Virus record (IMG/VR): IMGVR_UViG_3300031760_000004
Location: 28,294-92,293 of that record
Origin: a virus
Lineage: Duplodnaviria; Heunggongvirae; Uroviricota; Caudoviricetes
Strand: one strand, 5' to 3'
Length of the DNA: 64,000 nt
Part shown: in pieces, positions 5,510-41,488 of the stretch
Position numbering within the stretch: position 1 is the stretch's first letter
How the letters are laid out: every line of letters begins with the position of its first letter
The notes under the pieces: generated by a model
Databases searched by the model: none
Seen by the model: the letters and a program-made list of their open reading frames with translations, nothing else
What the model was told of the DNA's origin: nothing
Translations under genes and position numbers: made by a program

Positions 5510-5512
5510 AGA
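5486..5512 (+). promoter_or_regulatory. Putative sigma70-type promoter with extended -10 (TTGGCC-18-TGgTAGAAT) in a divergent intergenic region
   Basis: tTGGCCtgtgatcccgttttgTGGTAGAATatcttatcat lies upstream of the 5560 gene. AGGGAG ribosome-binding site 9 nt before the ATG. Confidence 0.35.
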
Positions 5513-5559
5513 ACGAGAACTATGGTCAAAGGAACCTAAGGCAGGGAGATGGCTGACAC

Positions 5560-6852
5560 ATGGACATTACCGACGACACCCTACACTCCAACATGCTGCG
5601 CATATTCCGGGACGGAAAGGTCCCGGAGTACGTGCTTGACGCTAACCCGAACGACATGACCAAGGCCGCCACGGCCAAGTTGCCGGACGCCCTGTTCGCC
5701 GACCGGGTAAACAGGCGCTACCCGATCGACTCCAAGGCCAGCACGTGGCTGTCGGCGGCGTACTTCGCCAAGACGGCGTCCGGGGACGCGTACTCCTCCG
5801 AGGCCCTCAGGGGTCTGGTGCGGGACACCATCAAGCTCGCCGCCGACAAGTACGGGATACGCAAGGACGTCGACGAGGCCATGGAGGCGCTGTCACGCGG
5901 CCCCGCGGAGAAGAAGGCCGCGGACGACGAGTCCAACTACGGGTGGCCCTCAGAGAAAAAGTACCCCATGTTCGACGAGCACGGGGTGAAGATGGCGAAC
6001 AGCTACTTCGCCGAGAACTGCTTCAACTACCCGCCGGCGATGCGCCGCACGATCGCTGAGCGCATCTTCCAGAAGTGCGCCGAATACGGCGTGGAGGCCA
6101 ACGACGTCGTCCGCCGCGAGGCCGGGCAGGGGTTCAACCTCCGCGAGGACGTGGGCGTGGAGCTGGTGGACCGCGTCAAGATGGCGAGCCACGACAGCCC
6201 CGAGCTGGCGTCCGCCCTGGCCGGCGCCGCCCAGGCCATGCTTGAGATGCCCATGGACCGGTACCAGGGCAGCCTGGCCAAGTTCGCGGCCCTGCTCGAC
6301 CGCTTCGACGAGGAGACCGGGTTCGCAGATCGCTACGGCGTCCGCTTCCGCTCGCCTATGGAAATATTCCACGGTCGCAACATAAAGGAGGCCTCCGACT
6401 TCCTGGACGACTCCGTGCAGCTCGGCGGCGACCTGTTCAGCATCACCAAGCTCGCCGGTCTCCCCATGGACCTGTTCACCTCCGCGCTGGGTGATGATTT
6501 CGGCGATATGATCCGCGGATGTGATGGCGGCTCATGCGGCTCGATGAAGGCCATGCGCATCACCAAGAAGGTTCCGGGCGGCCTGATGCGCATCACGATT
6601 TCCGGCGGCGTGCCCGAGATGATGGACGGCGGGTTCGGGTTCGACTCCGACAAGCCGATCGACGTCGAGGACACGGAAGACGCGGAATGCAATCCCGATG
6701 AATGCGAGAAGGCTGAGGAGCCGAAGGAGTTCGAGGAGGACGACGGCGGCGAAGGCGTCATCGACGTCAAGAAGCTCGGAAAGGCCCTGAAGGCGCTCCC
6801 GGAGCGCGACAGGAACGCGCTTCGCAAGGCGATTGAACTGTACATGGACTAA
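5560..6852 (+). CDS. Hypothetical protein with a highly acidic C-terminal region (possibly scaffold or virion-associated)
   Basis: 430 aa. Good ribosome-binding site. C-terminal D/E-rich tail (DVEDTEDAECNPDECEKAEEPKEFEEDDGGEG). Confidence 0.55.
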   Translation: MDITDDTLHSNMLRIFRDGKVPEYVLDANPNDMTKAATAKLPDALFADRVNRRYPIDSKASTWLSAAYFAKTASGDAYSSEALRGLVRDTIKLAADKYGIRKDVDEAMEALSRGPAEKKAADDESNYGWPSEKKYPMFDEHGVKMANSYFAENCFNYPPAMRRTIAERIFQKCAEYGVEANDVVRREAGQGFNLREDVGVELVDRVKMASHDSPELASALAGAAQAMLEMPMDRYQGSLAKFAALLDRFDEETGFADRYGVRFRSPMEIFHGRNIKEASDFLDDSVQLGGDLFSITKLAGLPMDLFTSALGDDFGDMIRGCDGGSCGSMKAMRITKKVPGGLMRITISGGVPEMMDGGFGFDSDKPIDVEDTEDAECNPDECEKAEEPKEFEEDDGGEGVIDVKKLGKALKALPERDRNALRKAIELYMD

Positions 6853-7400
6853 TGAGGACCACAATGACACGCTACGAACAGGGATTCATGAACAAGTGCG
6901 CCGAGTACGGCGTGGACGGGCAAACCGCCAGACAAATGCTTAAAGTTGCATGGCCGTGGTCAAGTAAGAAAGACGATTCGATCTACCTGGACAAAGTTCC
7001 GCACGAATCAAGTGATACGTTTTTGCCTAGTTTAGGTAAAAAACCTAAATACCATTCACTGGCAACCGCGTTTCAAAAAAGTATGAAACCAAATACTGTA
7101 GGCCAATTACTGCTTACGCTTGACGACAAAGACCCGAATATCCTAAAAGAATACACCGTTGCCACCGATGCTCCGGACTCATGGTCAGAATCCGATGAGT
7201 GGAAACTTATAGCACATGGAGTTGACACAATGAGGAAAAACAAAATAAAGAGGCTTCTTATTGCCATGACTAACTCAGGAAAAAACAGCTCGCCTTATCG
7301 TGTATGGACTGGAGACGTTGTATCACCGAAATCCAAAATGGATGATGGCAACGACATATCCTCGTTGTTTTTTAACGGAGAAGGCATTAGACTAAACTAG
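6852..7400 (+). CDS. Hypothetical protein; compositionally chimeric gene with a GC-rich 5' end and an AT-rich (~40% GC) body
   Basis: 182 aa ORF. A sharp drop in GC from about 6960 to 7400 against a ~63% background. Confidence 0.45.
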   Translation: MRTTMTRYEQGFMNKCAEYGVDGQTARQMLKVAWPWSSKKDDSIYLDKVPHESSDTFLPSLGKKPKYHSLATAFQKSMKPNTVGQLLLTLDDKDPNILKEYTVATDAPDSWSESDEWKLIAHGVDTMRKNKIKRLLIAMTNSGKNSSPYRVWTGDVVSPKSKMDDGNDISSLFFNGEGIRLN

Positions 7401-7401
7401 C

Positions 7402-8109
7402 ATGGATCCATTCCTCCAGCAATTCGGCCACGACCTGTCGGACCCGTTCACGGTCCGGCAGGACCTCATACAGTCGCCCGAGACCATGGCGACGGTGGTC
7501 CACGCCATCATCCGCGACAAGTACGGGGACGAGGCGTACTGGTGGGACCCGCTCACGGTGTCGCTGGAGCTCAAGGCCGACTTCCAGGTCGACCCGTGCC
7601 CGGAGTTCATGGACCGCTGGGGGGCCATGCAGGTCGTCATGACGGGCGACGCCTTCTTCAACCGCGTAGACGCCTTCTTCGGGGTCTGCAACGCCCTGTC
7701 GGACGGAAACCCGTTCTTCGGCGCCTTCGACCCAGTAACGGTCGAGGAGGCCGCCTGGGCGGTGGCGGAAGTCGGAATGAACAGGGACATGCTCCCGTTC
7801 TCCCCGACCATCAAGAAGTACTGCTCGATCATATTGGAGAAGAACGGCTACGGAAAGGGGAACTTCCCGCCGATTTTCGACGTGGTGTTTGACGACGACA
7901 CCACGCTCAAGGACATACGGGCCGGCCTGGTCTCGGACGAGAACGGCAGGGCCCTCCACCAGTACCTTTCGGAGAACGTCGACGACATCGCGAAGCAGTT
8001 CGACTCGCTGGCCGACCTGAAGAACGTGGACGACGACCTGCTCAAGAAGGGGCTTGTCAACGCCTTACGGGAGAACCACAATGAACGCACGCAGCAAAAT
8101 CCTGCTTAA
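7402..8109 (+). CDS. Hypothetical protein
   Basis: 235 aa ORF, tightly packed with its neighbours. Confidence 0.5.
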   Translation: MDPFLQQFGHDLSDPFTVRQDLIQSPETMATVVHAIIRDKYGDEAYWWDPLTVSLELKADFQVDPCPEFMDRWGAMQVVMTGDAFFNRVDAFFGVCNALSDGNPFFGAFDPVTVEEAAWAVAEVGMNRDMLPFSPTIKKYCSIILEKNGYGKGNFPPIFDVVFDDDTTLKDIRAGLVSDENGRALHQYLSENVDDIAKQFDSLADLKNVDDDLLKKGLVNALRENHNERTQQNPA

Positions 8110-8413
8110 GCAGGCTCAGATGCTCGCCCTGCACAACAAGTACGTCAGGGCAATGGAGGCCGGCCGGCGCGAGATCGAGAAGATCGCGGCGGCCGAGATG
8201 GCGAAGCAGGCCATGTACCGCAAGGTGATAGCCGGTCTGAAGGGGCTGGGGAAAGAGGCGCAAACGCAAGCGCAGCCCCCGTCCGTAGTCAAGGCCGTCG
8301 TGTCTCCGGCCGCCAGAAAGCGGCGAAACACGTTGCAGCAGGTGCAGCAGGCGCGACAGGAATACCGGAGCATGCTGCCGAACAATCCAACTCAACCGCA
8401 TAAGGTGGGATAA
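8081..8413 (+). CDS. Hypothetical small protein (helical, K/A/Q-rich)
   Basis: ORF 8054..8413. Internal Met at 8081 gives MNARSKILLKQAQ... Start is uncertain. Confidence 0.4.
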   Translation: MNARSKILLKQAQMLALHNKYVRAMEAGRREIEKIAAAEMAKQAMYRKVIAGLKGLGKEAQTQAQPPSVVKAVVSPAARKRRNTLQQVQQARQEYRSMLPNNPTQPHKVG

Positions 8414-8414
8414 C

Positions 8415-8750
8415 ATGAGCCAGGACAAGATCATAGCCGGTGTCACGGCCCTAATCGGGCTTGCGACAATGTTTTTCGGGATGTCCCATGAGACGGCGTC
8501 CGTCATCCAGTCCGCCGTCCCGGAGGTTGTCGGCGGGGTGATGGCCATGTGCACTGTCATTTCGTACCTGAACAACCGACAGAAGAACAAGGAGCGCGAG
8601 TTCCAGAAGCGCTGCCAGATCTTCCAGGCGATGGCGTACAGCGGGTCCCCTGTGTCAGAAAACGGTTCACCCAGGACCCCCGACGAAGTGAAACACGTCG
8701 AGGACCACGTCGCGAAGGCCGCCAGGGCCGCGTTCGGCATGGAAATCTGA
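8415..8750 (+). CDS. Small membrane protein
   Basis: 111 aa. Hydrophobic segment IIAGVTALIGLATMFFG. Confidence 0.45.
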   Translation: MSQDKIIAGVTALIGLATMFFGMSHETASVIQSAVPEVVGGVMAMCTVISYLNNRQKNKEREFQKRCQIFQAMAYSGSPVSENGSPRTPDEVKHVEDHVAKAARAAFGMEI

Positions 8751-9202
8751 TGAAGAAGATCTCGAAACTCGTCAAAAGGATACCGGCCGTCGGCCACGAG
8801 GCCGGCGACGAAGTCCCGAAGCGCGTCCTGATGAAGTTCGAGGACGGCGAGACCGGCAGGACCAAGTGCGCCGCGTTCATCGAGATAGCCGACACGCAGC
8901 CTCTGAGGACCAGGGGTCTTTCAAAGAGGGCCTCCATCGGAAGAAACGACGGCATGTGGTTCGACTGCCGCGGGCCGTTCTGGATGAAGGACGTCGAGTT
9001 CCCGCTCGACCTCTGCTACCTTGACGAGTCCGGCGCGGTCACGGAGAAGATCGCCATGGCCAAGGACAAGGCCGGCCGCACGCTGTATTCGAGGACGAAG
9101 TACGCGTCCGTGCAGGCGGTCGAGCTTCCGGCCGGGTTCTGCGACAGGCACGGGATAAAAGTGGGCGACTTCCTCGTCCCGTTATTGAAACTGGGGGACT
9201 GA
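8750..9202 (+). CDS. DUF192 (COG1430)-like protein
   Basis: Internal Met of ORF 8549..9202. MKKISKLVKR...GMWFDCRGPFWMKDVEFPLDLCYLDESGAV resembles the DUF192 core. Confidence 0.5.
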   Translation: MKKISKLVKRIPAVGHEAGDEVPKRVLMKFEDGETGRTKCAAFIEIADTQPLRTRGLSKRASIGRNDGMWFDCRGPFWMKDVEFPLDLCYLDESGAVTEKIAMAKDKAGRTLYSRTKYASVQAVELPAGFCDRHGIKVGDFLVPLLKLGD

Positions 9203-9205
9203 CAC

Positions 9206-9994
9206 ATGGCTGACGCACGTTTCAAGCCCATAGGCGGCATGTTCCAGGGCGTACGCGGCTCCACCGACGTAGGAGGAGCCAAAAAGTACGCCGGCAAGCT
9301 TGTTAAGCTCAATTCAGAAGGCATTGTCGACGAAACGTGCCTTCCGCCCGACGTGGCACGCGCCGCGGACCTGTCCCACCGTCTCGACGTCGAGATAGAG
9401 GAGCGGACGGAAGGCGACCTCGCCCTTTCAGGGCGCATAACCGACCTGGGACGCGTGGTGGACTCGAACTACGACGGGCTTTCGGCCTCGATCGGAGATA
9501 CGGCCGCCCGGCTGCAGGCGCTCGACGAGCGCGAAGCGGGCGACATCGCCTCAGTCACCGGTGAAATAGACGGCGTCAAGACGCGCATGGACGCCGCCGA
9601 GCGGGGCATACAGGACAACGCGCACAGCATTTCGGACATAAACAACGCCATATCCGACTTGGTTGACGCGGAAACCAGTCTGAGGGCGAGGATCGCGGCC
9701 CTTGAAACGTCCGTAAACGGCGACGACACGCACAAGGGCCTCGTTGAGAAGGTATCGGACCTGAACCTGGCGTACAACAGGCTCGACGCGGCCGTGACCA
9801 CGCTCAACGGCGAGCTCGCGTCGTGGGCCACCAACCTTTCAAACCTCCTCCAGGAGGTCCAGAACATGAAGCAGGACATGGACGCGTACAAGGACAGCAC
9901 GGACACGCATCTCGGCGAGATAGACGACGAAATCTCGTCAATCAACGCCAAGATCGAAGAGATCTACAACAGGCTCGTGCCGCCCAATTCGTGA
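9206..9994 (+). CDS. Coiled-coil protein (structural or assembly-like)
   Basis: 262 aa with long heptad-like stretches (RLQALDEREAGDIASVTGEIDGVKTRMDAAERGIQDNAHSISDINNAISDLVDAETSLRARIAALETSV). Confidence 0.5.
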   Translation: MADARFKPIGGMFQGVRGSTDVGGAKKYAGKLVKLNSEGIVDETCLPPDVARAADLSHRLDVEIEERTEGDLALSGRITDLGRVVDSNYDGLSASIGDTAARLQALDEREAGDIASVTGEIDGVKTRMDAAERGIQDNAHSISDINNAISDLVDAETSLRARIAALETSVNGDDTHKGLVEKVSDLNLAYNRLDAAVTTLNGELASWATNLSNLLQEVQNMKQDMDAYKDSTDTHLGEIDDEISSINAKIEEIYNRLVPPNS

Positions 9995-10011
9995 GACAGG
10001 AGCCGCAAAGA

Positions 10012-10404
10012 ATGAAGGGCGAGACAGCTGCGGACGCCGGAGGCCCGGATTCCGGCAAAACGAGGGGCGCAAGACGGTTCAGCTCCCGCACGATCGAGAA
10101 ACGGGACGCAAAACGCCTGTTTTTATTGAAGTTCCACGCCATGCACAAGGTGAACCACATTCCGTGGTCCGACTGCGCGGCGATGTACGAGGCCGAAACC
10201 GGCGAGGCCGTGACGGAGGACCAGCTTAGGAACCGCGTGAAACGCGCCGTGATGGACGCAGGATTCGTCAAAATCTCCGAATTTCCGGAAAAAATCGTGG
10301 TTTCGGTGTTCGAACTGTCGTTTTTCGGGTGTGTCTGGTGCGCAATCCGCAAGTTTTTCTCAAAAATAGGTCGTTTTAGCCAAAAATCAGCCAAAATTTG
10401 CTGA
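10012..10404 (+). CDS. Hypothetical protein; C-terminus may be spurious read-through into an A-tract repeat region
   Basis: Internal Met of ORF 9823..10404. The last ~30 codons translate the phased A/T-tract repeats. Confidence 0.3.
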   Translation: MKGETAADAGGPDSGKTRGARRFSSRTIEKRDAKRLFLLKFHAMHKVNHIPWSDCAAMYEAETGEAVTEDQLRNRVKRAVMDAGFVKISEFPEKIVVSVFELSFFGCVWCAIRKFFSKIGRFSQKSAKIC

Positions 10405-10470
10405 AAAACGGCTGAAAAATGGCGTTTTTAGGCAAAAATCGCCGCAAAACCGCAACAAGGACCAAAAAAT
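10330..10470. repeat. Helically phased A-tract and T-tract direct repeats (unit GCnnAAAAAtnGC, at least 7 copies about 11 bp apart)
   Basis: agccaaaaatcagcc / agccaaaatttgc / gctgaaaaacggc / gctgaaaaatggc / ggcaaaaatcgcc / gccgcaaaaccgc / accaaaaaatgcc, preceded by T-tracts (tcgtttttcggg, caagtttttctc). Confidence 0.6.
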
Positions 10471-11689
10471 GCCGTCCACAGCGCTTACACCAGATCCGGG
10501 GCTGGCCCAAGTCCTTTCAGAACTCCATCCCGCCGAGCCAGTCGTGCAGTACCGCAGCAACGTATCGCTCCTGATTCTCGGCGGAAGCTACAATGTTGGT
10601 TCTACAAGGGTGTTCATGCCCACGGATCTCATTCTGAACACCGCGCTCATGAACGTCGAGCCGGTCAACTACGCGTTTCCCATGTCAGTGGACATCGACG
10701 TTGGTGGATCCGCGTCCTCGATTCCTCCGGGAAGCGACTGCGGCATATATCTCGGCGATGACGGAAAGCTCAGATTGCTGCTATACGCCGGCGACGAAAT
10801 ATACGTCACTGGCGGAAATCCGCTGACAATGAGGTGTCTCGGCGGTTATCACACGCTGTGCTACGGAGTCGGGGTCCTAGGGATGCGCCCGGAGTCAGTG
10901 TACCCCGGCCAGGCACACCCGCTTTCATCCTTCACGGCCGGCGACATACTGCCAAAATCGGTATGGGCGTTCAATTTCAGGCCGGACTGCCCTGATCCCA
11001 CCGGGATGGTGTACATTTCGGAGACTAACACGTGGATCGACATATACCCGGCGTCCGGAAGCATGTCGAACCCCAAGTCCGTTTTCTCGTACAACCCCTC
11101 GGCCTTCGGGCAGGACGTGATACGGCGGAGGACCAGCGGCCACGACCAGACGGTCTACGTCGACCTGCACGCCTCATACTCGGGGTTCATGACCGGTTTC
11201 GCGGCGGTCGGCAAGAGGCTGCCCTATTCGGACGAGTTCTATTTCGCGGCCCTTGGGTCGAACTGCCGTACGATCGCCGACGGTACGTTTATAGACTATG
11301 TGCCTGGCCACATGCCGTACGCGGACTGGCACACCACGTATCTCAAGACTGGCGGATGGCTTGACACGAAAAACGAGAGGATGATATCGTCCATCGGGTG
11401 CGAAGCAATGTGCGGCCTGGTAAACCACTGGCTGCAGGAGAGATACATACCTCAGGACGGAGGATATACGGCAACCGAGGTCGCGACGGGGAACGCGAAC
11501 TCCGAGGGTATGTACGCGTCTGGCACGTCGATATTGCTCGCCGGTGGAAGCTACAAGAACTTTGCCGCCAACATACCGGTGTCGGGACCGATGTGCCGTA
11601 GAATCGTCAATAACAACGTGTCGTTTACTGGCGGATACGACAACGCCGGGGCGAGAGGCGTGTGCCCGTGCCGGCAGACCGCGAGGTAG
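10469..11689 (+). CDS. Tail fibre / receptor-binding-like protein, paralog A
   Basis: 406 aa. Shares PKSVWAFNFRPDCPDPTGMVYISETNTWIDIYPASG and MISSIGCEAMCGLVNHWLQERY with the downstream 818-aa protein. Confidence 0.5.
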   Translation: MPSTALTPDPGLAQVLSELHPAEPVVQYRSNVSLLILGGSYNVGSTRVFMPTDLILNTALMNVEPVNYAFPMSVDIDVGGSASSIPPGSDCGIYLGDDGKLRLLLYAGDEIYVTGGNPLTMRCLGGYHTLCYGVGVLGMRPESVYPGQAHPLSSFTAGDILPKSVWAFNFRPDCPDPTGMVYISETNTWIDIYPASGSMSNPKSVFSYNPSAFGQDVIRRRTSGHDQTVYVDLHASYSGFMTGFAAVGKRLPYSDEFYFAALGSNCRTIADGTFIDYVPGHMPYADWHTTYLKTGGWLDTKNERMISSIGCEAMCGLVNHWLQERYIPQDGGYTATEVATGNANSEGMYASGTSILLAGGSYKNFAANIPVSGPMCRRIVNNNVSFTGGYDNAGARGVCPCRQTAR

Positions 11690-11692
11690 GGC

Positions 11693-14149
11693 ATGGCGGC
11701 CAGAAATCTGAGACAGAATGCGAAGTCGCGGAGGGATGCGTCGGACGACCCAGTGGTAGTTTTAGACCCGTCGCCGTCCGAAGGGCTGCGCGAAAGCTAC
11801 CCGGCGTCCCCGGTGGTGTCATGCCCGGACCCGGACCATGTCAAGGTTCTGTCTGGAAGGTACCTTGTCAACGGCAAGTTCGTGTTCATTCCGGAGGACA
11901 CCCTCGTGCGGCACCCGTACTCCAAAAAGAACAGGGTGAAGTTCCCCGGCAGGGACATGGCCGTGCTGCTCGGGTCGGACGCCGCGATAAAGCTGGCGGT
12001 GTTTGATCCGAGAATCGACATGGCGTCCGCAATCCGGGACGGCGTCGAGGTGTCAGGGATAAGATACCGGGTTCTCGGAGGCGTACACCTCCTGTGCGAG
12101 GGCACCGCGTCGCTCGACCAGTCCCACCCGCTGTTCGGGCTTGTTGCCGGATCGATGTTGCCGGCGTCGGCGTGGGCGCTCAACTTCAGGCCGGCGTGCC
12201 CCGATCCCAGGGCAATGGCCTATGTAAAGGAGACAGACGTCTGGGTTGACATATACAACGCGTCTGGGGACATCGCGGCGCCTGAAAGCCGGTTCGGAGG
12301 CATACGGCTTGCGGCGAGATCGCAGACTGAGCTGTCCACCGGGTTGGGAAACGTCGGCAAGCTCCTTCCCACGGATGCCGACTTCCTGTCGGCGGCCCTC
12401 GGCTCCAACGCCGGAACGACCGTGATGCAGAACCCCAACTTCGGTGCAAGGTTCGCGCTATACAGGAACAGCCAGTATAACGCGTTTAGACCACCGGAAG
12501 ACGGAGAGTACTACAGGAACGAGCGGAACGTGTATTACGCCGACCTGAAAAACGACACGACCGGTGGCCATGTAGACACGCGCTACCGCAGGATGGTGTC
12601 CGACATCGGGTGCGAGGAGATGTGCGGCCTGCAGCGGCAGTTTCTCAGGACCGTCAGGCCGGACGTGTCAAAAAACGTGTACAGAACTGTGGAGAAGTCA
12701 GTCCAATATCTGGAATGGGATTTCGCGGGCATATGCAGCTTCGGCTCCAACGCCGTTGAAATAGATCCCATGTGGTTTCAGGACGTCACCGCCTTCAACA
12801 TCTCCGCCGCATGCGCCGGCGGCGGGGCGTGCGACATGCAGGCGGCGTGCGGTCCGGCAAGCCGGTCAGGCACTTCCGCGGTGTCTCCCGGACCGAGCGA
12901 CCGGCCATCATCTTACAGTACATACCCGTTGGCGAGTCTTGTCGGAGACGAGCCGCCATACACCTTCAAATTCTACAGGGACGACATCCTGTCCGGAGAA
13001 AATCACCTCACCGAGGGGCCAAACCCGGACGCCATATTCGCACCGTACTATACCGGCTCCAGGGGGGCGAGCCCGTGCATACACATCAGCCTGGTACACC
13101 ACGAGGTGCCGTCCGGCATATTGCCAGACTTCATGTGGTTCAGGAACGTCTGGACGGAGCCGCTCGTGCTCAACTTCGAGAACACGGGTTACGGAAGCAT
13201 CAGGGCCGTGCTTGAGTTCTCGAGGCTGTCCGGGTCCATGAGCTGGAATCAGTACGAAGGGGCGCCAGAGGCCGACCGCGTGTTCAACCCCGGTGAGACC
13301 ATGTGCGTAAGGGCCCCGGTCGGAGTGGTCAACAACGCCTTCGGCAGGAGGTTCCGACCGCTGTCGCTTGGATCTTACTCCTACGACGACCGGTGGAAGC
13401 GTGTCACCGGCGCCGTGGAGGTCGGCGGAAACATCATGTCAGTGCTGGAGCATGGTGCCACGGAGTTCCCTGACTACACGACCCACTACGCGTTCCGCGA
13501 CGCCTTCAGCCAGTGCCCGTCGCTGCTGAGCTCGAGGAAGCTTGTGCTGCCGGCCAAGGTGGCGGTCTCGGGATGCTACTGCCAGATGTTCGGCGACATG
13601 AACGACAGGCCGTACCTCCCCTGGACAAAGTACATGGTCGACGCGCCGGAAATCCGCGCCATGCGCTTACGGGCCTCCACGACGTCGTCGTCGAGGATAT
13701 ACAGTCCGTTCGAATGGATGTTCGCGGGATGCACGGCGATGGTCGACCCGCCACCCGAGCTGCTCATGGAGTCAGCGCAGTACGAGGAGATGTTCCGGCA
13801 GTGCAGCTCGATGAGGCGTCCGCCGAGAATAACGGCCGAAGACTTCAGTGAGGATTCCGCCTGCTACCGCATGTTCCGTGGGTGCACGTCGATGAAGACC
13901 GTGTCGGTCCTTCATCCCGTGGGGCCTGTCGGGCCATACGCCATGTACCAGATGTTCGGCAACGGGTCGTCAGCGTCGGGAACCGGCATAAGGTACAGCA
14001 CCGAGAAGGGCGGCGACTACCAGTACGAGTGGAGTCTGCCGGAGCTTGGGTCAGGGTCCGACGGAGACAACGCCCTTACCGGAATGCTTAACGGAACCGC
14101 GGCCGTGCGCGGCCAGAAATACTACTTTACGGAGCCGCCGGTGGAATAA
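11693..14149 (+). CDS. Tail fibre / receptor-binding-like protein, paralog B, with C-terminal BspA/DUF285-like repeats (FxGCxSM)
   Basis: 818 aa. Central region paralogous to the 10469 gene (PASAWALNFRPACPDPRAMAYVKETDVWVDIYNASG; MVSDIGCEEMCGLQRQFL). C-terminus has repeated MFGDMND / MFAGCTAM / MFRQCSSM / MFRGCTSM / MFGNGSS motifs. Confidence 0.55.
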   Translation: MAARNLRQNAKSRRDASDDPVVVLDPSPSEGLRESYPASPVVSCPDPDHVKVLSGRYLVNGKFVFIPEDTLVRHPYSKKNRVKFPGRDMAVLLGSDAAIKLAVFDPRIDMASAIRDGVEVSGIRYRVLGGVHLLCEGTASLDQSHPLFGLVAGSMLPASAWALNFRPACPDPRAMAYVKETDVWVDIYNASGDIAAPESRFGGIRLAARSQTELSTGLGNVGKLLPTDADFLSAALGSNAGTTVMQNPNFGARFALYRNSQYNAFRPPEDGEYYRNERNVYYADLKNDTTGGHVDTRYRRMVSDIGCEEMCGLQRQFLRTVRPDVSKNVYRTVEKSVQYLEWDFAGICSFGSNAVEIDPMWFQDVTAFNISAACAGGGACDMQAACGPASRSGTSAVSPGPSDRPSSYSTYPLASLVGDEPPYTFKFYRDDILSGENHLTEGPNPDAIFAPYYTGSRGASPCIHISLVHHEVPSGILPDFMWFRNVWTEPLVLNFENTGYGSIRAVLEFSRLSGSMSWNQYEGAPEADRVFNPGETMCVRAPVGVVNNAFGRRFRPLSLGSYSYDDRWKRVTGAVEVGGNIMSVLEHGATEFPDYTTHYAFRDAFSQCPSLLSSRKLVLPAKVAVSGCYCQMFGDMNDRPYLPWTKYMVDAPEIRAMRLRASTTSSSRIYSPFEWMFAGCTAMVDPPPELLMESAQYEEMFRQCSSMRRPPRITAEDFSEDSACYRMFRGCTSMKTVSVLHPVGPVGPYAMYQMFGNGSSASGTGIRYSTEKGGDYQYEWSLPELGSGSDGDNALTGMLNGTAAVRGQKYYFTEPPVE

Positions 14150-15160: not shown

Positions 15161-15388
15161 ATGAGCACGATGCTTGACAATGTCAACCACCCCCTCGTCA
15201 AGCTCCGCATCGTCGACAACCTCGACACCTTCGCGGAGCTGGTCGTAAAGGCGGCAAAAGCCGCCGATGAGGTCTACGAGGCCTCGGTACAGCGCGATGA
15301 CAAAAGCGCTGACGCACTACTAAACGACCCCAGGCTCGAAGCCCTGTGGGACCTCGAGGCCTTTTTCGAGGGGTGGATCGACAACTAG
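15161..15388 (+). CDS. Hypothetical small protein
   Basis: 75 aa. Ribosome-binding site GGAGAAAACATCATG. Flanked by terminators. Confidence 0.45.
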   Translation: MSTMLDNVNHPLVKLRIVDNLDTFAELVVKAAKAADEVYEASVQRDDKSADALLNDPRLEALWDLEAFFEGWIDN

Positions 15389-15391
15389 CAA

Positions 15392-15428
15392 AAGCCCGTC
15401 CCCGCAAGGGGCTCCGGGCTTTTCTTTA
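15392..15428 (+). terminator. Rho-independent terminator (repeat family, copy 2; GCAA tetraloop)
   Basis: AAGCCCGTCCCCGCAAGGGGCTCCGGGCTTTTCTTT. Confidence 0.65.
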
Positions 15429-15436
15429 CCTGCCAC

Positions 15437-15453
15437 GCGCTGTGTGCTATACT
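15437..15453 (+). promoter_or_regulatory. Putative extended -10 promoter TGcTATACT upstream of the LpxR-like gene
   Basis: tgtgTGCTATACTgttacc lies 7 nt before the ATG-proximal region. Weak -35. Confidence 0.3.
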
Positions 15454-15459: not shown

Positions 15460-16365
15460 ATGAAAAAGACACTTGCAATCTTTTTATCACTTCTGGCCCT
15501 CGGGCTGCACGCGGGCCGCGTGGAAGTCACCGCCGAGAACGACGTGGTCTTCGACAACTGCGACGAGGACTACACGCACGGAACTAGAATCACGTACTTC
15601 AACGACTCCGGCTGGCGCTTCGGGGCACAGCAGCAGATCTACACCCCGGACGACATAACCCTCCGCGACCAGGTTCCCGGAAGGCACCCGTACGCCGGCG
15701 CGCTGATGGGCTTCGTTGGATACCGCGACAACTACCTAGCAAAAGGCCCGGTGAGCCTCTACAACGACTACGAGCTGCTTCTTGGCGTGCTGGGGCCGTC
15801 CGCCCTCGGCAAGGAGACGCAGAGGACGATCCACAAGTGGCTTGACTGTCACATGCCAGAGGGCTGGGACCACCAGCTCCATGACGAGGCAATCGTGCAG
15901 GGCCAGTACTTCCACGGGCTTGACTGGAGGGTCATCGGCGAGGACAAGGGCTGGTCGGCCCACCTGGAGCAGGACGCTGGCGTTCTTCTCGGCACCTACC
16001 AGATCGCCGCCGGCGGAAGCCTCACGCTCAAGGCCGGGTACGGCTTCGGAATCGGAGAGTCCGACCACGAGATGTACGTCAGGTCGGCCGTCAGGCACCC
16101 GTTCAGCTCCGTGTACGTCCTCGGTGGCTGCGAGGGCCGGTGGTGGCTCCGCAACGAGCTTCTCGACGGCAACGCGCACTACGTCGGAAACCATGACACC
16201 CTCACGGTGGACAAGGAGCCGCTCACAGGCTGCCTCAAGGCCGGCGTCGGCCTCAGGATCGGCGGGGTCGAGGTGCTGGCCGTGTGGATGTGGTGGTCAC
16301 GCGAGTACAAGACGCAGGAGTCGCCGGCCGACTACGGCTCCGTCAGGCTGGGGGTGGATTTCTGA
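15460..16365 (+). CDS. Secreted LpxR (DUF2219)-like lipid A 3-O-deacylase homolog (tentative)
   Basis: Signal peptide MKKTLAIFLSLLALGLHA. In the mature protein, ENDVVF places Asn9-Asp10 at the positions of LpxR catalytic residues. It also has a YTHG motif and His near position 120-123. Beta-barrel-like G/Y-rich C-terminus. Internal Met of ORF 15346..16365. Confidence 0.5.
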   Translation: MKKTLAIFLSLLALGLHAGRVEVTAENDVVFDNCDEDYTHGTRITYFNDSGWRFGAQQQIYTPDDITLRDQVPGRHPYAGALMGFVGYRDNYLAKGPVSLYNDYELLLGVLGPSALGKETQRTIHKWLDCHMPEGWDHQLHDEAIVQGQYFHGLDWRVIGEDKGWSAHLEQDAGVLLGTYQIAAGGSLTLKAGYGFGIGESDHEMYVRSAVRHPFSSVYVLGGCEGRWWLRNELLDGNAHYVGNHDTLTVDKEPLTGCLKAGVGLRIGGVEVLAVWMWWSREYKTQESPADYGSVRLGVDF

Positions 16366-16430
16366 TGCCTTTGTTCGCGGCGTTGTTCACGATTCTCCTT
16401 CTGGAGCTCATTGTAAAGGAGTAGGGCGCG

Positions 16431-17180
16431 ATGCTCTCGAAGTACATTTGGAACAGGATCAGGCTTTTGTGGGGTTTTATGACAGGCAACACCAGAATCG
16501 CGGACCGCGGCGACACGGCGGTGGTATGCGTCGGAATGCAGACTTCGTCGAAGTACGGGGCGTGCCCCGGGGCGCAGGTGGACTCCGACTCGATGGCGTC
16601 GCTGCTCGCCAGATACGGCAACGTGCAGCTGCTTCAGAACGGCGGGGCGACAGTTTCGTCCGTCTCGGCCGTCATGAAGGCCGGAGCCGAAAAGAAGCTG
16701 TTCATATTCTACTATTCGGGACATGGCGGGCAGGGCAAGGACGCCAAGGGCCAGAACGGGGTGTCCGAGTACCTGTGCCTCAACAACGGCCCCCTGCACG
16801 ACTACGACATCTGGAGCATCGTGTCCCAGGCGAAGGGGCGCGTCGTCATGGTGTTCGACTGCTGCCACTCGGCCACCATGTTCAGGGACCAGTCGGCAGA
16901 ACCGGAAGAGCCGTTCGACAACGCCGGCTTCTCGTTCTCCATGCTGCAGGGGCCGCTGGCCCTTGGGGAGGTCAATCTCCTGGTATGGTCCGGATGCCCG
17001 GCCAACAGCTATTCATACGGGGACGCCAACGGCGGAGTGCTGACGAATGGGCTTCGCAAGGGGTTCAGCGAGTCGGACACCTACGACGACGCGTGGAGGC
17101 GCATGGAGCGTGCAGCGAGGAGCCAGAGACCGGCGAGGACCGTGATCGGTTCCGGCTTCGGCGGCCTGGTGTTCAGGTAG
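16431..17180 (+). CDS. Metacaspase / peptidase C14 caspase-like protease
   Basis: 249 aa. Catalytic His motif FYYSGHGGQ and Cys motif VFDCCHSAT match the metacaspase HG / D-x-C-H-S dyad signatures. Confidence 0.7.
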   Translation: MLSKYIWNRIRLLWGFMTGNTRIADRGDTAVVCVGMQTSSKYGACPGAQVDSDSMASLLARYGNVQLLQNGGATVSSVSAVMKAGAEKKLFIFYYSGHGGQGKDAKGQNGVSEYLCLNNGPLHDYDIWSIVSQAKGRVVMVFDCCHSATMFRDQSAEPEEPFDNAGFSFSMLQGPLALGEVNLLVWSGCPANSYSYGDANGGVLTNGLRKGFSESDTYDDAWRRMERAARSQRPARTVIGSGFGGLVFR

Positions 17181-17193: not shown

Positions 17194-17274
17194 CTTAAAA
17201 AAGACCCTGAAACGGGTATAACTACATAGTCGGAAGATTTACTTCGGACCGTCCGGGTGGGCGGTCCTTTTTCG
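17194..17274 (+). promoter_or_regulatory. Conserved intergenic module, copy 2 (CTTAAAAAAGaCCCTGAAAcGGGTATAActacat plus hairpin), followed by GGACCGTCCGGGTGGGCGGTCC-TTTTT stem-loop
   Basis: Between the metacaspase gene and the 17257 gene. The second hairpin has a T-run and may terminate the LpxR-metacaspase transcript. Confidence 0.4.
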
Positions 17275-17628
17275 TCTTCCGCGCATAACTTGAACTGGAG
17301 GTTCACCATGAAAGCTGAAAGACAACTCGAAATCGCAAACAAGCTGGAGGCGCACGAACGGATGTTGTTCACACCGTTTGCGTGCCTGTCACTCGGGCTT
17401 CTGCCCGTGATGTTCATAGGCGTGTTCTGTATCGGCGGGTACAGCCTGTTCACGAGAATCGTGGGATGGGTGTGCTTCGCCTACATGCTGGTCACCGTTT
17501 CGCTGTTCTTCGCGATCCTGATCCTGCATTCAGCGGAAGTCTGGTTCAGAGACCGGTGGTGGAGGAAAACGGAAGACCCGTGGAAGGTCTGGCAAATAGA
17601 CCACTACGGAAAGATCATCGACGACTGA
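17257..17628 (+). CDS. Small integral membrane protein (2 TM)
   Basis: 123 aa. LSLGLLPVMFIGVFCIGGYSLFTRIVGWVCFAYMLVTVSLFFAILIL. Ribosome-binding site GGAGG. Confidence 0.5.
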   Translation: MGGPFSSSAHNLNWRFTMKAERQLEIANKLEAHERMLFTPFACLSLGLLPVMFIGVFCIGGYSLFTRIVGWVCFAYMLVTVSLFFAILILHSAEVWFRDRWWRKTEDPWKVWQIDHYGKIIDD

Positions 17629-17632
17629 GCTA

Positions 17633-17670
17633 AAAGCCCGTCCCCGCAAGGGGCTCCGGGCTTTCTTTTA
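17633..17670 (+). terminator. Rho-independent terminator (repeat family, copy 3)
   Basis: AAAAGCCCGTCCCCGCAAGGGGCTCCGGGCTTTCTTTT, identical core to copy 2. Confidence 0.65.
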
Positions 17671-17719
17671 CCCCTTTGTAAACAGGTTGTCGACAGCCTG
17701 TCAACATGTCTCAGAAGGC

Positions 17720-26073: not shown

Positions 26074-27194
26074 TGGTCTTTTACTACGGTGGCAAATTCA
26101 ATCCCTGGACAAAGGGGCACATGAGCGTCCTGAAGGACCTGTGCCACTACATCCAGGACAACTACAAGCTCATCGAGGAGAAGTACGGAAAACCCAAGAT
26201 CATAATCGGGGTCAAGTCCGGCGCGCTTGATGGCAGCGACATGGCATGCGGACGCGGAATCAAGACGTCCGTTATGAACCGTAAGGACATGGTGCGCGAG
26301 GCCATCAACGGGCTTCAGAAGGAGTTCCCGTTCCTAGTCGAGTTTGAAAGCTACACCTCGAACGACAAGATCGACGTTGTGGAGCAGACGATCGACAGGA
26401 CCTGGGAATACTTCAACAGCAAGCCCATGTGGTGGCCTGACAACGGCAAGGTCACCATCGTCATGGGCGAGGACGAGCACCGCGATTTGATTCTCTCGTC
26501 CGAGGGCTCGAGCGACCGGTGGATGCACGCCAGGGAGATCCTTGACAAATGGCCCGTGATGGCATTCCCCAGGGACCCGTTCGTGTCCAGCACACGCGTC
26601 CGCGAGATATTCCGCGCCGACCCGTTCGTGCAGTGGCAGTCCGTGTCAGACTACCTGGAGAAGCCCGTATACGACTACATCGTCGACAACATGCTCTACT
26701 GGCAGTACCCGGAGGAGGAAGCCCGGCGCGAGGAGACCGTGTTTCTCCACAACTACGACATGTCGAAGTTCCCGAGGCCGTCGTGCACCGCCACGGTGGC
26801 CGTGACGTGCTGCGGGAAGATTCTCCTGGTGAGGCGCAAGGGCCACCCGTTCCGGGACTACTGGGCCATGCCCGGAGGGTTCTTCGACGTGGACAAGGAC
26901 GAGAGCCTTGTGTACACTGCACAGCGGGAGCTCTCGGAGGAGACCGGACTTGACTGTCCCCCGGGTATGTTCAAGCTTTTCGACGTGTTCAGCGAGAAAT
27001 GGATCGATCCTAGGGGGCGCATCGTGGACACGGTGTTCCATGTCGACCTGGGCGACAAGTTCCGGGAGGTCAAGGCCGGCGACGACGCGGCCGAGCTGAT
27101 GTGGTGGCCTATCGATGGGCTTCCCAAGATGGCGTTCCACCATCGCAAGGTGGTGGAGTTTCTGGCAAGCCGCATGGCTATGGACAAGGAGTAG
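26073..27194 (+). CDS. nadM: Bifunctional NadM-type nicotinamide/nicotinate-mononucleotide adenylyltransferase fused to a Nudix hydrolase (ADP-ribose pyrophosphatase-like)
   Basis: N-terminus YYGGKFNPWTKGHMSVLKDL matches the (H/T)xGH nucleotidyltransferase motif of NadM-type NMNAT. C-terminus GGFFDVDKDESLVYTAQRELSEETGLD matches the Nudix box Gx5Ex7REUxEExGU. Confidence 0.7.
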   Translation: MVFYYGGKFNPWTKGHMSVLKDLCHYIQDNYKLIEEKYGKPKIIIGVKSGALDGSDMACGRGIKTSVMNRKDMVREAINGLQKEFPFLVEFESYTSNDKIDVVEQTIDRTWEYFNSKPMWWPDNGKVTIVMGEDEHRDLILSSEGSSDRWMHAREILDKWPVMAFPRDPFVSSTRVREIFRADPFVQWQSVSDYLEKPVYDYIVDNMLYWQYPEEEARREETVFLHNYDMSKFPRPSCTATVAVTCCGKILLVRRKGHPFRDYWAMPGGFFDVDKDESLVYTAQRELSEETGLDCPPGMFKLFDVFSEKWIDPRGRIVDTVFHVDLGDKFREVKAGDDAAELMWWPIDGLPKMAFHHRKVVEFLASRMAMDKE

Positions 27195-31668: not shown

Positions 31669-31724
31669 CAACAGGCTGTCCTACCGGCCGTACGGGGAAA
31701 CCAACAACAAGGAGCAAGACAACA

Positions 31725-41487: not shown

Positions 41488-41488
41488 C

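What the first reader, a model, noticed from the sequence alone, without database searches (positions are those of the whole stretch)
15460..17180. Co-transcribed LpxR-like outer-membrane enzyme and metacaspase pair
The two genes are 65 bp apart on the same strand. They share one candidate upstream promoter (TGcTATACT at 15445) and have no terminator between them. The next hairpin with a T-run follows the metacaspase gene, at 17247-17274. A lipid A 3-O-deacylase paired with a caspase-like protease is an unusual gene pair. One idea is proteolytic activation of the deacylase or of a host envelope factor. Another is a two-component abortive or exclusion module.
Basis: inference. Interest (0 to 1): 0.65.

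Follow-up and report, generated by a model that had tools for sequence, protein, structure and literature searches.

The report
Phage LpxR–micropeptide–caspase-like envelope operon
A large uncultured phage carries a small self-contained operon for an outer-membrane lipid A deacylase, a 19-residue membrane peptide and a caspase-like protease; the two enzymes turn up together in two separate phage lineages, so the phage probably uses both to remodel its host's envelope, but neither needs the other.

Summary
ORF A (15460-16365) is a full-length LpxR with an intact active site. ORF B (16431-17180) is a metacaspase/orthocaspase-type C14 peptidase with the His-Cys dyad. The window is a large phage.

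The pair lies between two strong intrinsic terminators. It sits behind an extended -10 box (TGCTATACT) that ends 6 nt before the LpxR ATG, which has no Shine-Dalgarno sequence. At least six relatives keep a close copy of this layout and four more a looser one, so a leaderless transcript is likely.

The 65-bp "spacer" is not empty. It encodes a conserved 19-aa hydrophobic peptide whose ATG overlaps the LpxR stop codon. The unit therefore has three genes.

LpxR and C14 are adjacent in 7 of 21 distinct phage LpxR loci. These include a second, phiKZ-like lineage where the pair is divergently oriented and the C14 is a lipoprotein. None of 80 bacterial LpxR loci has this C14 nearby. Each gene also occurs alone, in one case in the same genomic slot.

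My reading is a moron-like accessory cassette of envelope-directed effectors acting in parallel. It is not an obligate two-component system or a protease-activated deacylase. No link to lysis or defence genes was found. It is a new variant of a known kind, of moderate interest.

The parts
15388..15430 (+). Intrinsic terminator of the upstream 75-aa gene. It insulates the cassette on its 5' side.
   Evidence: The RNA fold gives a 9+4 bp hairpin, dG -21.6 kcal/mol, z -3.73 (0 of 200 shuffles as good), followed by UUUUCUUU. The same hairpin plus 'CTTTTCTTTACC' tail precedes LpxR in L151, L153, L154, L150 and L005.
15425..15453 (+). Sigma-70-type promoter: -35-like TTTACC (15425-15430), a 17-nt spacer, and the extended -10 TGCTATACT (15445-15453). 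The -10 ends 6 nt before the LpxR ATG, so the predicted +1 is at or next to the A of the ATG (a leaderless mRNA).
   Evidence: Promoter scan. The pattern occurs only twice in 64 kb. LpxR has no Shine-Dalgarno sequence, whereas 36 of 55 window genes do. An extended -10-like box ending 6-8 nt before the ATG is kept in L005, L001, L150 and L229/L146, a plain -10 (TACAAT) ending 6 nt before it in L154, weaker TATTAT/TATTCT boxes ending 9 nt before it in L151 and L153, and more distant boxes in L006 and L149, although the flanking sequence has diverged. Transcription was not measured.
15460..16365 (+). LpxR-family outer-membrane lipid A 3'-O-deacylase gene (301 aa). It has a signal peptide MKKTLAIFLSLLALGLHA|G and a C-terminal Phe.
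   Evidence: Pfam PF09982, E 2.9e-51. The family profile hits Salmonella LpxR 3FID at E 4.7e-18. The AF2 model (pLDDT 82.6) matches 3FID at TM 0.75, E 1.2e-17. Invariant N27, D28 and H125 and near-invariant T39 correspond to mature N9, D10, H122 and T34 of Salmonella LpxR.
16365..16424 (+). 19-codon ORF encoding the hydrophobic peptide MPLFAALFTILLLELIVKE. Its ATG overlaps the LpxR stop (TGATG). Its last sense codons form the AAGGAG Shine-Dalgarno sequence of C14.
   Evidence: Read directly from the sequence. It is conserved as a 19-aa ORF in L060/L227 (MALLAALFVILLLELIVKE) and L226 (MKLFALLFTLILIGLTVRK). Between the window and L060 there are 8 synonymous and 3 conservative replacement codon changes. 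In L226 it is out of frame with C14 and overlaps both neighbours by TGATG, so it is a separate, translationally coupled gene. Other C14 homologues (P0081, P0075, P0091) carry a fused N-terminal TM helix instead.
16431..17180 (+). Caspase-fold (C14, orthocaspase/metacaspase-type) cysteine peptidase gene (249 aa). The dyad is H98/C145. The N-terminus is an amphipathic helix with no signal peptide.
   Evidence: Pfam PF00656, E 2.4e-12. The profile hits GSU0716 (3BIJ) at 1.5e-24, then metacaspases. C145 aligns with the mutated catalytic Cys of Yca1 C276A. The AF2 model (pLDDT 81.9) has 3BIJ and metacaspases as top folds. Invariant residues are C45, D51, S96, G97, H98, D143, C145 and H146. The N-terminus has maximum mean hydrophobicity 0.19 and muH 0.54.
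17246..17275 (+). Intrinsic terminator that closes the cassette.
   Evidence: Terminator scan: 9 pairs, 7 of them GC, loop of 4, T-run. dG -18.2 kcal/mol, z -2.92. Equivalent hairpins with T-runs follow C14 in L060, L006 and L011.

Best explanation
This is an autonomous, moron-like accessory operon of a large phage. It delivers envelope-directed products into the infected Gram-negative host.

**Shown**
- The unit is terminator, extended -10 promoter, LpxR, 19-aa hydrophobic peptide, C14 peptidase, terminator.
- Both enzymes keep their catalytic residues and folds.
- The two enzyme genes are linked far more often than chance allows in phages, in two lineages. Each can also occur alone.

**Inferred mechanism**
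1. Host RNA polymerase transcribes the unit from the extended -10 promoter as a leaderless mRNA. The three ORFs are translated in a coupled way.
2. LpxR is exported by Sec through its signal peptide. BAM inserts it into the outer membrane (12-strand barrel, C-terminal Phe). There it removes the 3'-acyloxyacyl group of lipid A, using Ca2+ and a histidine-activated water as in Salmonella LpxR. This thins and loosens the outer leaflet.
3. The C14 peptidase has a metacaspase-type acidic S1 pocket, so it should cut after Arg or Lys. It works at a membrane surface:
   - in this phage, through its amphipathic N-terminal helix, probably together with the 19-aa TM peptide;
   - in other relatives, through a fused TM helix;
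   - in the phiKZ-like lineage, as an exported lipoprotein.

   It cleaves host envelope-associated protein(s).
4. The two enzymes act in parallel on the envelope. One does not activate the other.

**Most likely pay-off**
- An altered cell surface, giving superinfection exclusion or protection of progeny from re-adsorption to infected cells and debris. This fits the position of the cassette next to tail-fibre-like genes in the variable region.
- Outer-membrane weakening that helps release is the next most likely benefit.
For: **Phage context**
- Tail proteins, TerL, SbcC, helicases, DnaB and PolA are present.

**Cassette anatomy**
- Flanking terminators and a rare extended -10 box.
- LpxR has no Shine-Dalgarno sequence although 36 of 55 genes do.
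- The promoter and leaderless layout is conserved in relatives.
- A TGATG overlap and the conserved micropeptide.

**Enzymes intact**
-.

**Variable accessory status**
- Related phages share the flanking blocks (window 3806-10404 and TerL).
- In the slot between them they carry LpxR+C14 (L001, L006, L060), C14 only (L011) or LpxR only (L005).

**Linkage**
- Seven of 21 distinct phage LpxR loci have an adjacent C14.
- These include the divergent pairs L228 and L159 in a second lineage. There LpxR is 32% and C14 about 40% identical to the window proteins, and the neighbour is a phiKZ_IP-like gene.
- The two genes lie on the same contig but apart in IMGVR 3300031760_000002 and 3300031998_000033.
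- No C14 lies within 10 kb of 80 bacterial LpxR genes.

**Envelope targeting of the C14 family**
- Lipoprotein signal peptides in P0138, P0144, P0152, P0171, P0172, P0183 and L228 C14a.
- TM anchors in P0075, P0081, P0091, P0115 and P0116.
- Three predicted membrane proteins follow the cassette (17308-19061).

**Precedent**
- lpxR is a conserved neighbour (within 10 kb) of antiterminator Q beside the prophage-encoded PasD1/PasD2 sRNA genes of pathogenic E. coli (PMC13192938).
Against: - No expression, localisation or activity data exist.
- The window C14 has no export signal. It would sit in the cytoplasm or on the inner face of the inner membrane, while lineage-B homologues are exported lipoproteins. 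The compartment, and hence the substrate, is unresolved and may differ between lineages.
- Two thirds of phage LpxR loci lack an adjacent C14, and most phage C14 genes have no LpxR nearby. The coupling is therefore facultative and could reflect shared insertion hot-spots.
- In some relatives (L002, L061) LpxR is packed without a gap into an operon of large, probably virion, genes and has no promoter of its own. Timing and regulation are therefore not uniform.
- The benefit to the phage (exclusion or egress) is inferred from analogy only.
Confidence: 0.5

Rival explanations
1. Hot-spot neighbours with unrelated functions. LpxR and C14 are independent morons that repeatedly land in the same variable regions of related phages. 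Their adjacency has no functional meaning.
For: - Each gene occurs alone in the same slot (L011, L005).
- Fourteen of 21 LpxR loci lack an adjacent C14.
- C14 is a solitary gene on the opposite strand to its neighbours in L230 and L231.
- LpxR alone is bounded by a terminator and promoter in several loci.
- No LpxR fusion proteins appear among the best 150 of 5,637 family representatives.
Against: - Adjacency arose in two divergent lineages with different orientations.
- In the window sub-lineage the genes are joined by a translationally coupled micropeptide and share one promoter and terminator.
- Three of the four IMG/VR contigs over 100 kb that carry LpxR also carry C14.
Confidence: 0.25
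2. Enzymatic outer-membrane disruption at lysis. LpxR accumulates in the outer membrane and destabilises it. The Arg/Lys-specific protease severs outer-membrane-to-wall tethers such as Braun lipoprotein, OmpA or Pal. Together they replace or assist spanins, as LysB esterase does for mycobacteriophages.
For: - No endolysin, holin or spanin domain is recognisable anywhere in the 64-kb window.
- In L002/L003 LpxR follows directly after a LysM protein.
- Lineage-B C14 proteins are lipoproteins with a non-Asp +2 residue, as outer-membrane lipoproteins have.
- Some C14 N-termini are Gly/Ala-rich weak TM segments reminiscent of SAR domains.
- In L001 a small lipoprotein-like ORF follows C14.
Against: - The window is only part of the genome, so canonical lysis genes may lie elsewhere.
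- The cassette is dispensable in close relatives (L011, L005), which is unusual for an essential lysis function.
- It has a host-type promoter insulated from the late genes.
- The window C14 has no export signal.
- No clan CD peptidase is known to act in phage lysis.
Confidence: 0.13
3. One reading: the protease processes or activates the deacylase, or the pair is a two-component abortive or exclusion toxin like the bacterial gasdermin-protease systems.
For: - Adjacency and co-transcription.
- A weak PADLOC 'caspase' hit (E 3.8e-6) and a weak NCBIfam EACC1-type caspase hit.
- A conserved Arg (MFR, R152) begins the disordered 154-178 linker of C14, which would suit autoprocessing.
Against: - LpxR homologues with and without a C14 partner have the same length and no pro-domain.
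- The LpxR active site faces the outer leaflet, while this C14 is not exported.
- No gasdermin-like or other effector is present, and LpxR has no PADLOC hit.
- The element sits in a replicative phage with no integrase found in the window. An abortive-infection role for a host is therefore unlikely.
Confidence: 0.07

Closest known systems
Salmonella Typhimurium LpxR (PDB 3FID), lipid A 3'-O-deacylase
   Same: - Same Pfam family.
- Same 12-strand barrel with a loop helix that carries the catalytic His (TM 0.75).
- N9, D10, T34 and H122 equivalents are conserved, as is Q118 by alignment.
- Signal peptide and C-terminal aromatic residue are present.
   Different: - Only about 15% structural-alignment identity.
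- D11 and E128 are not conserved (V29 and H131 here).
- It is phage-encoded and belongs to a clade (48-90% identity within it) whose best match in 185,579 bacterial species genomes is about 32-33%.
Prophage-borne lpxR of pathogenic E. coli, linked with antiterminator Q near the prophage PasD sRNA genes (PMC13192938)
   Same: A phage-associated genome region carrying lpxR as a non-essential accessory gene.
   Different: - Those are temperate lambdoid prophages, where LpxR is viewed as a host-adaptation or virulence trait.
- Here the phage is large and replicative-looking, with no integrase in the window.
- The gene is joined to a micropeptide and a protease.
- tblastn found no similarity in 50,697 GenBank phage records.
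Orthocaspases and metacaspases (GSU0716 / 3BIJ; Yca1; TbMCA2)
   Same: - Caspase-hemoglobinase fold.
- SGHG and DCCHS dyad motifs. The double Cys as in TbMCA2 is from my memory.
- Conserved Cys/Asp/Ser/Asp positions that form the acidic S1 pocket described for TbMCA2 (PMC4357240).
   Different: - Small single-domain protein (249 aa).
- Viral.
- Its N-terminus varies between amphipathic helix, TM anchor and lipoprotein signal.
- No known substrate.
- The metacaspase Ca2+ site was not examined.
Phage morons (promoter-gene-terminator cassettes of lambdoid and HK97-like phages; established concept)
   Same: - Own promoter and terminator.
- Inserted between conserved blocks.
- Present or absent among close relatives.
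- Products are aimed at the cell envelope.
   Different: - Found here in a non-lambdoid, probably virulent, large phage.
- It has three genes and a leaderless first cistron.
Receptor-blocking exclusion lipoproteins encoded next to receptor-binding genes (T5 Llp, phi80/N15 Cor; from my knowledge)
   Same: - Small envelope-targeted accessory products.
- Encoded beside tail-fibre or receptor-binding genes.
- Lineage-B C14 proteins are lipoproteins.
   Different: - Those are non-enzymatic blockers of a protein receptor.
- Here the products are two enzymes.
- No exclusion phenotype has been shown.
Bacterial gasdermin / caspase-like protease defence operons
   Same: A caspase-like protease gene next to a membrane-active partner.
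   Different: - The partner is an LpxR barrel, not a gasdermin.
- It is encoded by a phage, not a host defence island.
- PADLOC support is negligible.

Membership tests
LpxR (PF09982) lipid A 3'-O-deacylase | Sequence match above the curated family threshold over the full domain | tested here: met
   174.7 bits against a cut-off of 26. Residues 18-301 align to profile positions 20-323 of 323.
LpxR (PF09982) lipid A 3'-O-deacylase | 12-stranded outer-membrane beta-barrel with the LpxR fold | tested here: met
   The AF2 model has pLDDT 82.6 and 12 long strands plus helix 117-127. Foldseek's top hit is 3FID at E 1.2e-17, TM 0.75, and the next hit has TM 0.41.
LpxR (PF09982) lipid A 3'-O-deacylase | Catalytic and Ca2+-binding residues N9, D10, T34 and H122 (Salmonella mature numbering) | tested here: met
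   N27, D28 and H125 are invariant and T39 is at least 90% conserved in 30 homologues. H125, Q121 and T39 align with H122, Q118 and T34 of 3FID. N27 and D28 are mature positions 9 and 10 after the 18-aa signal peptide. The residue roles come from PMC6260217.
LpxR (PF09982) lipid A 3'-O-deacylase | Export signals of an outer-membrane protein (Sec signal peptide, C-terminal aromatic beta-signal) | tested here: met
   By inspection, the protein starts MKKTLAIFLSLLALGLHA|G and ends ...VRLGVDF. F301 is at least 90% conserved. No dedicated predictor was run.
LpxR (PF09982) lipid A 3'-O-deacylase | Removes the 3'-acyloxyacyl group of lipid A | not testable with these tools
   Needs lipid A mass spectrometry after expression.
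Peptidase C14 (metacaspase/orthocaspase subfamily) | Sequence match above the curated family threshold | tested here: met
   PF00656 at 47.5 bits against a cut-off of 21.4. The profile hits 3BIJ at E 1.5e-24 and metacaspases at E 4e-11 and weaker.
Peptidase C14 (metacaspase/orthocaspase subfamily) | Caspase fold with a His-Cys catalytic dyad | tested here: met
   The AF2 model has pLDDT 81.9, and its top folds are 3BIJ, metacaspases 9, 4 and 1, and MALT1. H98 (YSGHGG) and C145 (DCCHS) are invariant. C145 aligns with the Cys-to-Ala site of Yca1 C276A.
Peptidase C14 (metacaspase/orthocaspase subfamily) | Acidic S1 pocket (TbMCA2 C92, D95, S156, D211) giving Arg/Lys specificity | tested here: inconclusive
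   C45, D51, S96 and D143 are invariant. They occupy the GC..D, SGHG and D-x-C motifs, which align with Yca1. The pocket definition comes from PMC4357240. There was no direct alignment to TbMCA2 over residues 92-95 and no substrate test.
Peptidase C14 (metacaspase/orthocaspase subfamily) | Eukaryotic type I, II or III metacaspase architecture (prodomain or long p20-p10 linker) | tested here: not met
   It is a 249-aa single compact domain with a 25-residue low-confidence loop (154-178). The best structural relative is the bacterial GSU0716. 'Orthocaspase-like' is the better label.
Phage moron (autonomous accessory cassette) | Own promoter and terminator, insulated from neighbouring operons | tested here: met
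   Terminators lie at 15388-15430 and 17246-17275, and an extended -10 box at 15445-15453. This layout is conserved in relatives. The evidence is from sequence only.
Phage moron (autonomous accessory cassette) | Present or absent among otherwise syntenic relatives | tested here: met
   L001, L006 and L060 carry both genes, L011 only C14 and L005 only LpxR, all between the same conserved blocks.
Phage lysis cassette (endolysin, holin, spanin) | Adjacency to recognisable endolysin, holin or spanin genes | tested here: not met
   No lysis-related Pfam or PHROG family was found in the neighbours or anywhere in the window. The only hint is a LysM protein upstream of LpxR in L002.
Anti-phage defence system with a caspase-like protease (gasdermin-type, CHAT/Craspase, EACC1) | Match to defence-system models and presence of the cognate effector or sensor partner | tested here: not met
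   PADLOC gives no hit for LpxR and only a 24-bit 'caspase' hit for C14. NCBIfam caspase_w_EACC1 scores 24 bits against a cut-off of 140. No partner genes are present.

The most novel reading that the evidence does not exclude
LpxR and an envelope-targeted Arg/Lys-specific caspase-like protease, with a small TM peptide in this sub-lineage, form a previously unrecognised enzymatic outer-membrane-disruption or egress system of phages of Gram-negative bacteria. Lipid A deacylation loosens the outer leaflet. The protease severs the protein tethers between outer membrane and cell wall. This would be a Gram-negative counterpart of mycobacteriophage LysB and an alternative to spanins and disruptins.
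Probability: 0.13. Interest if true: 0.8.

Novelty: new variant of a known kind. Interest (0 to 1): 0.5.

Why it matters
**What is already known**
- Phage accessory genes that rewrite the host surface are known, for example O-antigen modification genes, exclusion lipoproteins and lpxR in prophage regions of pathogenic E. coli.

**What is new here**
- A lipid A deacylase in large, apparently virulent phages.
- Its recurrent partnership with a caspase-fold protease. No such protease has a described role in any phage.

**What it would show if the two act on the envelope together**
- Phages edit the lipid anchor of LPS during infection, not only its sugars.
- Clan CD peptidases have an envelope-directed role in viruses.
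- This bears on superinfection exclusion, vesicle or decoy formation and outer-membrane breakdown at lysis.

**A further, directly testable point**
- The conserved leaderless promoter layout and the 19-aa coupled micropeptide are clean small examples of non-canonical gene expression signals in uncultured phages.

Tried and rejected
1. **TAG read-through or stop-codon recoding fusing the 19-aa TM ORF to C14.** The ORF is in frame in the window and in L060. I rejected the idea for three reasons:
   - TAG is the commonest stop codon (21 of 55 genes).
   - No tRNA was found.
   - In L226 the same peptide ORF ends in TGA and is out of frame with C14.
2. **Lysis cassette.** Pfam and PHROG scans of all neighbours and of 56 further window ORFs found no endolysin, holin or spanin.
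3. **Defence system.** PADLOC and NCBIfam gave only sub-threshold caspase hits.
4. **Origin from a host or prophage.**
   - The best LpxR identity in 185,579 species genomes is 32-33%.
   - None of the 80 best bacterial loci has the C14 within 10 kb.
5. **Known isolated phages.** There was no blastn or tblastn hit in 50,697 GenBank phage records for the region or either protein.
6. **Rosetta-stone fusion.** The best 150 of 5,637 LpxR family representatives are all 121-374 aa.
7. **Function of proteins flanking LpxR in other phages.** Pfam gave only LysM and a weak phiKZ_IP match.
8. **Literature.** No paper links lipid A deacylase with viromes, or caspase-like proteases with phage lysis. A search for the IMG sample numbers found nothing, so the habitat and host remain undetermined.
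Full report
**1. The observation**

- ORF A runs from 15460 to 16365 (301 aa). ORF B runs from 16431 to 17180 (249 aa). They lie on the + strand, 65 nt apart.
- Pfam assigns ORF A to LpxR (PF09982, E 2.9e-51, essentially the whole profile). It assigns ORF B to Peptidase_C14 (PF00656, E 2.4e-12). Both are well above the curated cut-offs.
- TGCTATACT lies at 15445-15453. The scan pairs it with TTTACC 17 nt upstream. The extended -10 pattern TGNTATAMT occurs only twice in the 64-kb window.
- The hairpin at 17246-17267 plus its T-run folds at -18.2 kcal/mol (z -2.9). The inter-ORF stretch folds no better than shuffled sequence (z +1.7).

It spans 15388-15430, folds at -21.6 kcal/mol (z -3.7) and is followed by UUUUCUUU. 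The pair is therefore bracketed by terminators.

**2. Context**

- The window is part of a large phage genome of about 60% G+C.
- Recognisable genes include:
  - two tail proteins (10469-14149);
  - a large terminase (22602-24521, minus strand);
  - SbcC, two helicases and DnaB;
  - a family A polymerase with an N-terminal UDG domain.
- No integrase, endolysin, holin or spanin family was found in any of about 80 ORFs scanned.
- The genetic code is standard: stop codons are TAG 21, TGA 20 and TAA 14. Most genes (36 of 55) have a Shine-Dalgarno sequence.
- Nothing similar exists among 50,697 GenBank phage records, at DNA or protein level.

**3. The proteins**

*LpxR*
- A profile of 30 homologues hits Salmonella LpxR (3FID) at E 4.7e-18.
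- The AlphaFold model (pLDDT 82.6) is a 12-strand barrel. It superposes on 3FID with TM 0.75.
- The key residues of the Salmonella enzyme are N9, D10, T34 and H122 (PMC6260217). They correspond to N27, D28, T39 and H125 here, which are invariant or nearly so.
- A typical signal peptide and a C-terminal Phe are present.
- The protein has every sequence feature of an active outer-membrane lipid A 3'-O-deacylase.

*C14*
- The profile hits the uncharacterised Geobacter protein GSU0716 (3BIJ, E 1.5e-24) and then fungal, plant and trypanosome metacaspases.
- The model (pLDDT 81.9) gives the same ranking by fold.
- H98 and C145 are invariant. C145 aligns with the mutated catalytic Cys of Yca1 C276A.
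- The invariant C45, D51, S96 and D143 fall in the motifs that form the acidic S1 pocket described for TbMCA2 (PMC4357240). Cleavage after Arg or Lys is therefore the likely specificity. This is an inference.
- The loop 154-178 is of low confidence and begins just after a conserved Arg.

**4. The spacer is a gene**

- Bases 16365-16424 encode MPLFAALFTILLLELIVKE.
- The ATG overlaps the LpxR stop (TGATG). The last codons form the AAGGAG ribosome-binding site 8 nt before the C14 ATG.
- The same 19-codon ORF is present in L060/L227 (MALLAALFVILLLELIVKE) and in L226 (MKLFALLFTLILIGLTVRK).
- Between the window and L060 there are 8 synonymous and 3 conservative codon changes. That is the signature of a translated sequence.
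- In the window it is in frame with C14 across a TAG, so I considered read-through. In L226, however, it ends in TGA, is out of frame and overlaps both neighbours by TGATG.
- It is therefore a separate micropeptide that is translationally coupled to both neighbours. This is also the best sequence evidence that all three ORFs share one mRNA.
- Other homologues carry a fused TM helix at this position (P0081 in L006, P0075, P0091). L001 has neither a fused helix nor a peptide ORF.

**5. Promoter conservation and a leaderless start**

- The -10 box ends 6 nt before the LpxR ATG, and there is no Shine-Dalgarno sequence.
- At least six LpxR homologues of 50-57% identity keep a close copy of this layout: a terminator tail, then a -10 box ending 6-8 nt before the ATG. 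Four more keep a looser version.

| Locus | -10-like box | nt to ATG |
|---|---|---|
| L005 | TGTGCTATACT | 6 |
| L001 | TGTGGTATACT | 8 |
| L150 | TGTGCTACACT | 7 |
| L229 / L146 | TATGGTAAACT | 6 |
| L154 | TACAAT (not extended) | 6 |
| L151 | TGGTATTAT (weaker) | 9 |
| L153 | TGATATTCT (weaker) | 9 |

- L006 and L149 have a similar box further upstream.
It also implies a leaderless mRNA, which remains untested.
- In some phages (L002, L061) LpxR is instead packed without a gap behind a large gene and has no promoter of its own.

**6. Is the pair a pair?**

- Both proteins have many metagenomic relatives: 64 for LpxR and at least 210 for C14.
- Related phages share the blocks flanking the locus (window 3806-10404, and TerL). 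The slot between them is variable:
  - LpxR followed by C14 in L001, L006 and L060;
  - C14 only in L011;
  - LpxR only in L005, with a 34%-identical C14 about 90 kb away on the same contig (L015).
- A second lineage carries an LpxR only 32% identical to the window protein and has a phiKZ internal-head-protein-like neighbour. There L228 and L159 have C14 and LpxR adjacent but divergently oriented. L228 also carries a second C14 paralogue.
- Overall, 7 of 21 distinct phage LpxR loci have an adjacent C14.
- At least two further contigs, probably four, carry both genes apart from each other.
- By contrast, none of the 80 best bacterial LpxR loci has this C14 within 10 kb. The best bacterial LpxR is only 32-33% identical.
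- No LpxR fusion proteins appear among the top 150 family representatives.
- The linkage is real and phage-specific, but facultative.

**7. Where the protease works**

C14 homologues have three kinds of N-terminus:
- Clear lipoprotein signal peptides. An example is L228 C14a, MLKKILIPMALLAIAGC. Others are P0138, P0144, P0152, P0171, P0172 and P0183.
- A hydrophobic TM anchor (P0075, P0081, P0091, P0115, P0116).
- An amphipathic helix only, as in the window protein (maximum mean hydrophobicity 0.19, muH 0.54).

The family is therefore membrane- or envelope-directed. The compartment appears to differ between lineages. This is unexplained and limits any statement about substrates.

**8. Interpretation**

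- The best-supported reading is a moron-like accessory operon.
- Its products act on the host envelope in parallel. LpxR deacylates lipid A in the outer membrane. The protease, possibly anchored by the micropeptide, cuts envelope-associated proteins.
- Activation of LpxR by the protease is unlikely for three reasons:
  - LpxR has no pro-segment.
  - Its length is the same with or without a C14 partner.
  - The topology does not fit in this phage.
- A defence or abortive-infection module is unsupported.
- I favour surface alteration (exclusion, or protection of progeny from re-adsorption), for these reasons:
  - The cassette lies in the variable region beside tail-fibre-like genes.
  - It is dispensable in close relatives.
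  - It has a host-type promoter.
- Outer-membrane weakening for release is a serious alternative and the most novel reading. Mere co-location in an insertion hot-spot cannot be excluded.

**9. Novelty**

- Each enzyme family is known. lpxR linked to prophage genes is known in pathogenic E. coli (PMC13192938).
- Three things are new:
  - a phage-specific LpxR clade in large phages;
  - its recurrent pairing with a caspase-fold peptidase;
  - the coupled micropeptide and leaderless layout.
- I rate this a new variant of a known kind, with interest about 0.5.

Noticed in passing
window 26073-27194, 32784-33701, 55133-56434, 56471-57049: The phage encodes a near-complete NAD+ salvage and synthesis set. 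It comprises an NMN-adenylyltransferase-like + NUDIX fusion, NAD synthase (NadE), nicotinate phosphoribosyltransferase and an isochorismatase-type (nicotinamidase-like) protein. This could counter NAD-depleting host defences.
   Followed up: partly
window 17308-17628, 18180-18629, 18639-19061: Three predicted membrane proteins lie directly downstream of the cassette. Two of them are paralogue-like, with an N-terminal CxxC...CxxC zinc ribbon followed by several hydrophobic segments. There are no family hits beyond weak DZR matches. L011 keeps a homologue of 18639-19061.
   Followed up: partly
window 17211-17222; L060 about 5940-5955: The motif AACGGGTATAA(C/T) lies between the C14 stop and the terminator hairpin in the window. 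It also lies upstream of LpxR in the closest relative L060, where it replaces the TGnTATACT box and is followed by a normal AGGAGG Shine-Dalgarno sequence. It may be a second promoter type.
   Followed up: no
L002 7116-8000 and 8928-9470; L061 6894-7496; L064 7604-8260; window 6852-7400: Several otherwise unrelated proteins flanking LpxR in other phages share an N-terminal motif, roughly M-x-x-YEQGFLxKCAExG. One of them also carries a LysM domain. A weak match occurs in a window ORF just after the DUF6582 protein. It may be a common targeting or assembly tag of virion proteins.
   Followed up: partly
L001 9699-10187: The ORF immediately after C14 in L001 contains an internal lipoprotein-type signal (…NYAIIGFLLLTVVGC|KSNN…) followed by about 55 residues. 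It could be a small exported lipoprotein, either spanin-like or exclusion-like.
   Followed up: no
window 41408-44278: The family A DNA polymerase carries an N-terminal uracil-DNA-glycosylase-superfamily domain ahead of the 3'-5' exonuclease and polymerase domains.
   Followed up: no
window 31515-32585: A phage-encoded SPFH/Band 7 membrane-scaffold protein (E 2.9e-29).
   Followed up: no
window 1216-3786 (minus strand); L002/L003 1-1683; L064 1-573; L229 4741-8270: Glycosyltransferase genes accompany the LpxR-carrying phages. The families are GT2, and in L229 GT92, GT11 and UDP-galactopyranose mutase. This hints at wider surface-glycan or LPS modification by this phage group.
   Followed up: no
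L228 534-1313 and 6040-6810: One phiKZ-like contig carries two paralogous lipoprotein C14 peptidases about 5 kb apart. Only one of them is next to LpxR.
   Followed up: partly
window 45035-45043: The only other extended -10 match in the window (TGGTATAAT) sits at the end of ORF 44710-45042. It lies just before a long ORF of low GC3 (45058-46170), whose coding status is doubtful.
   Followed up: no
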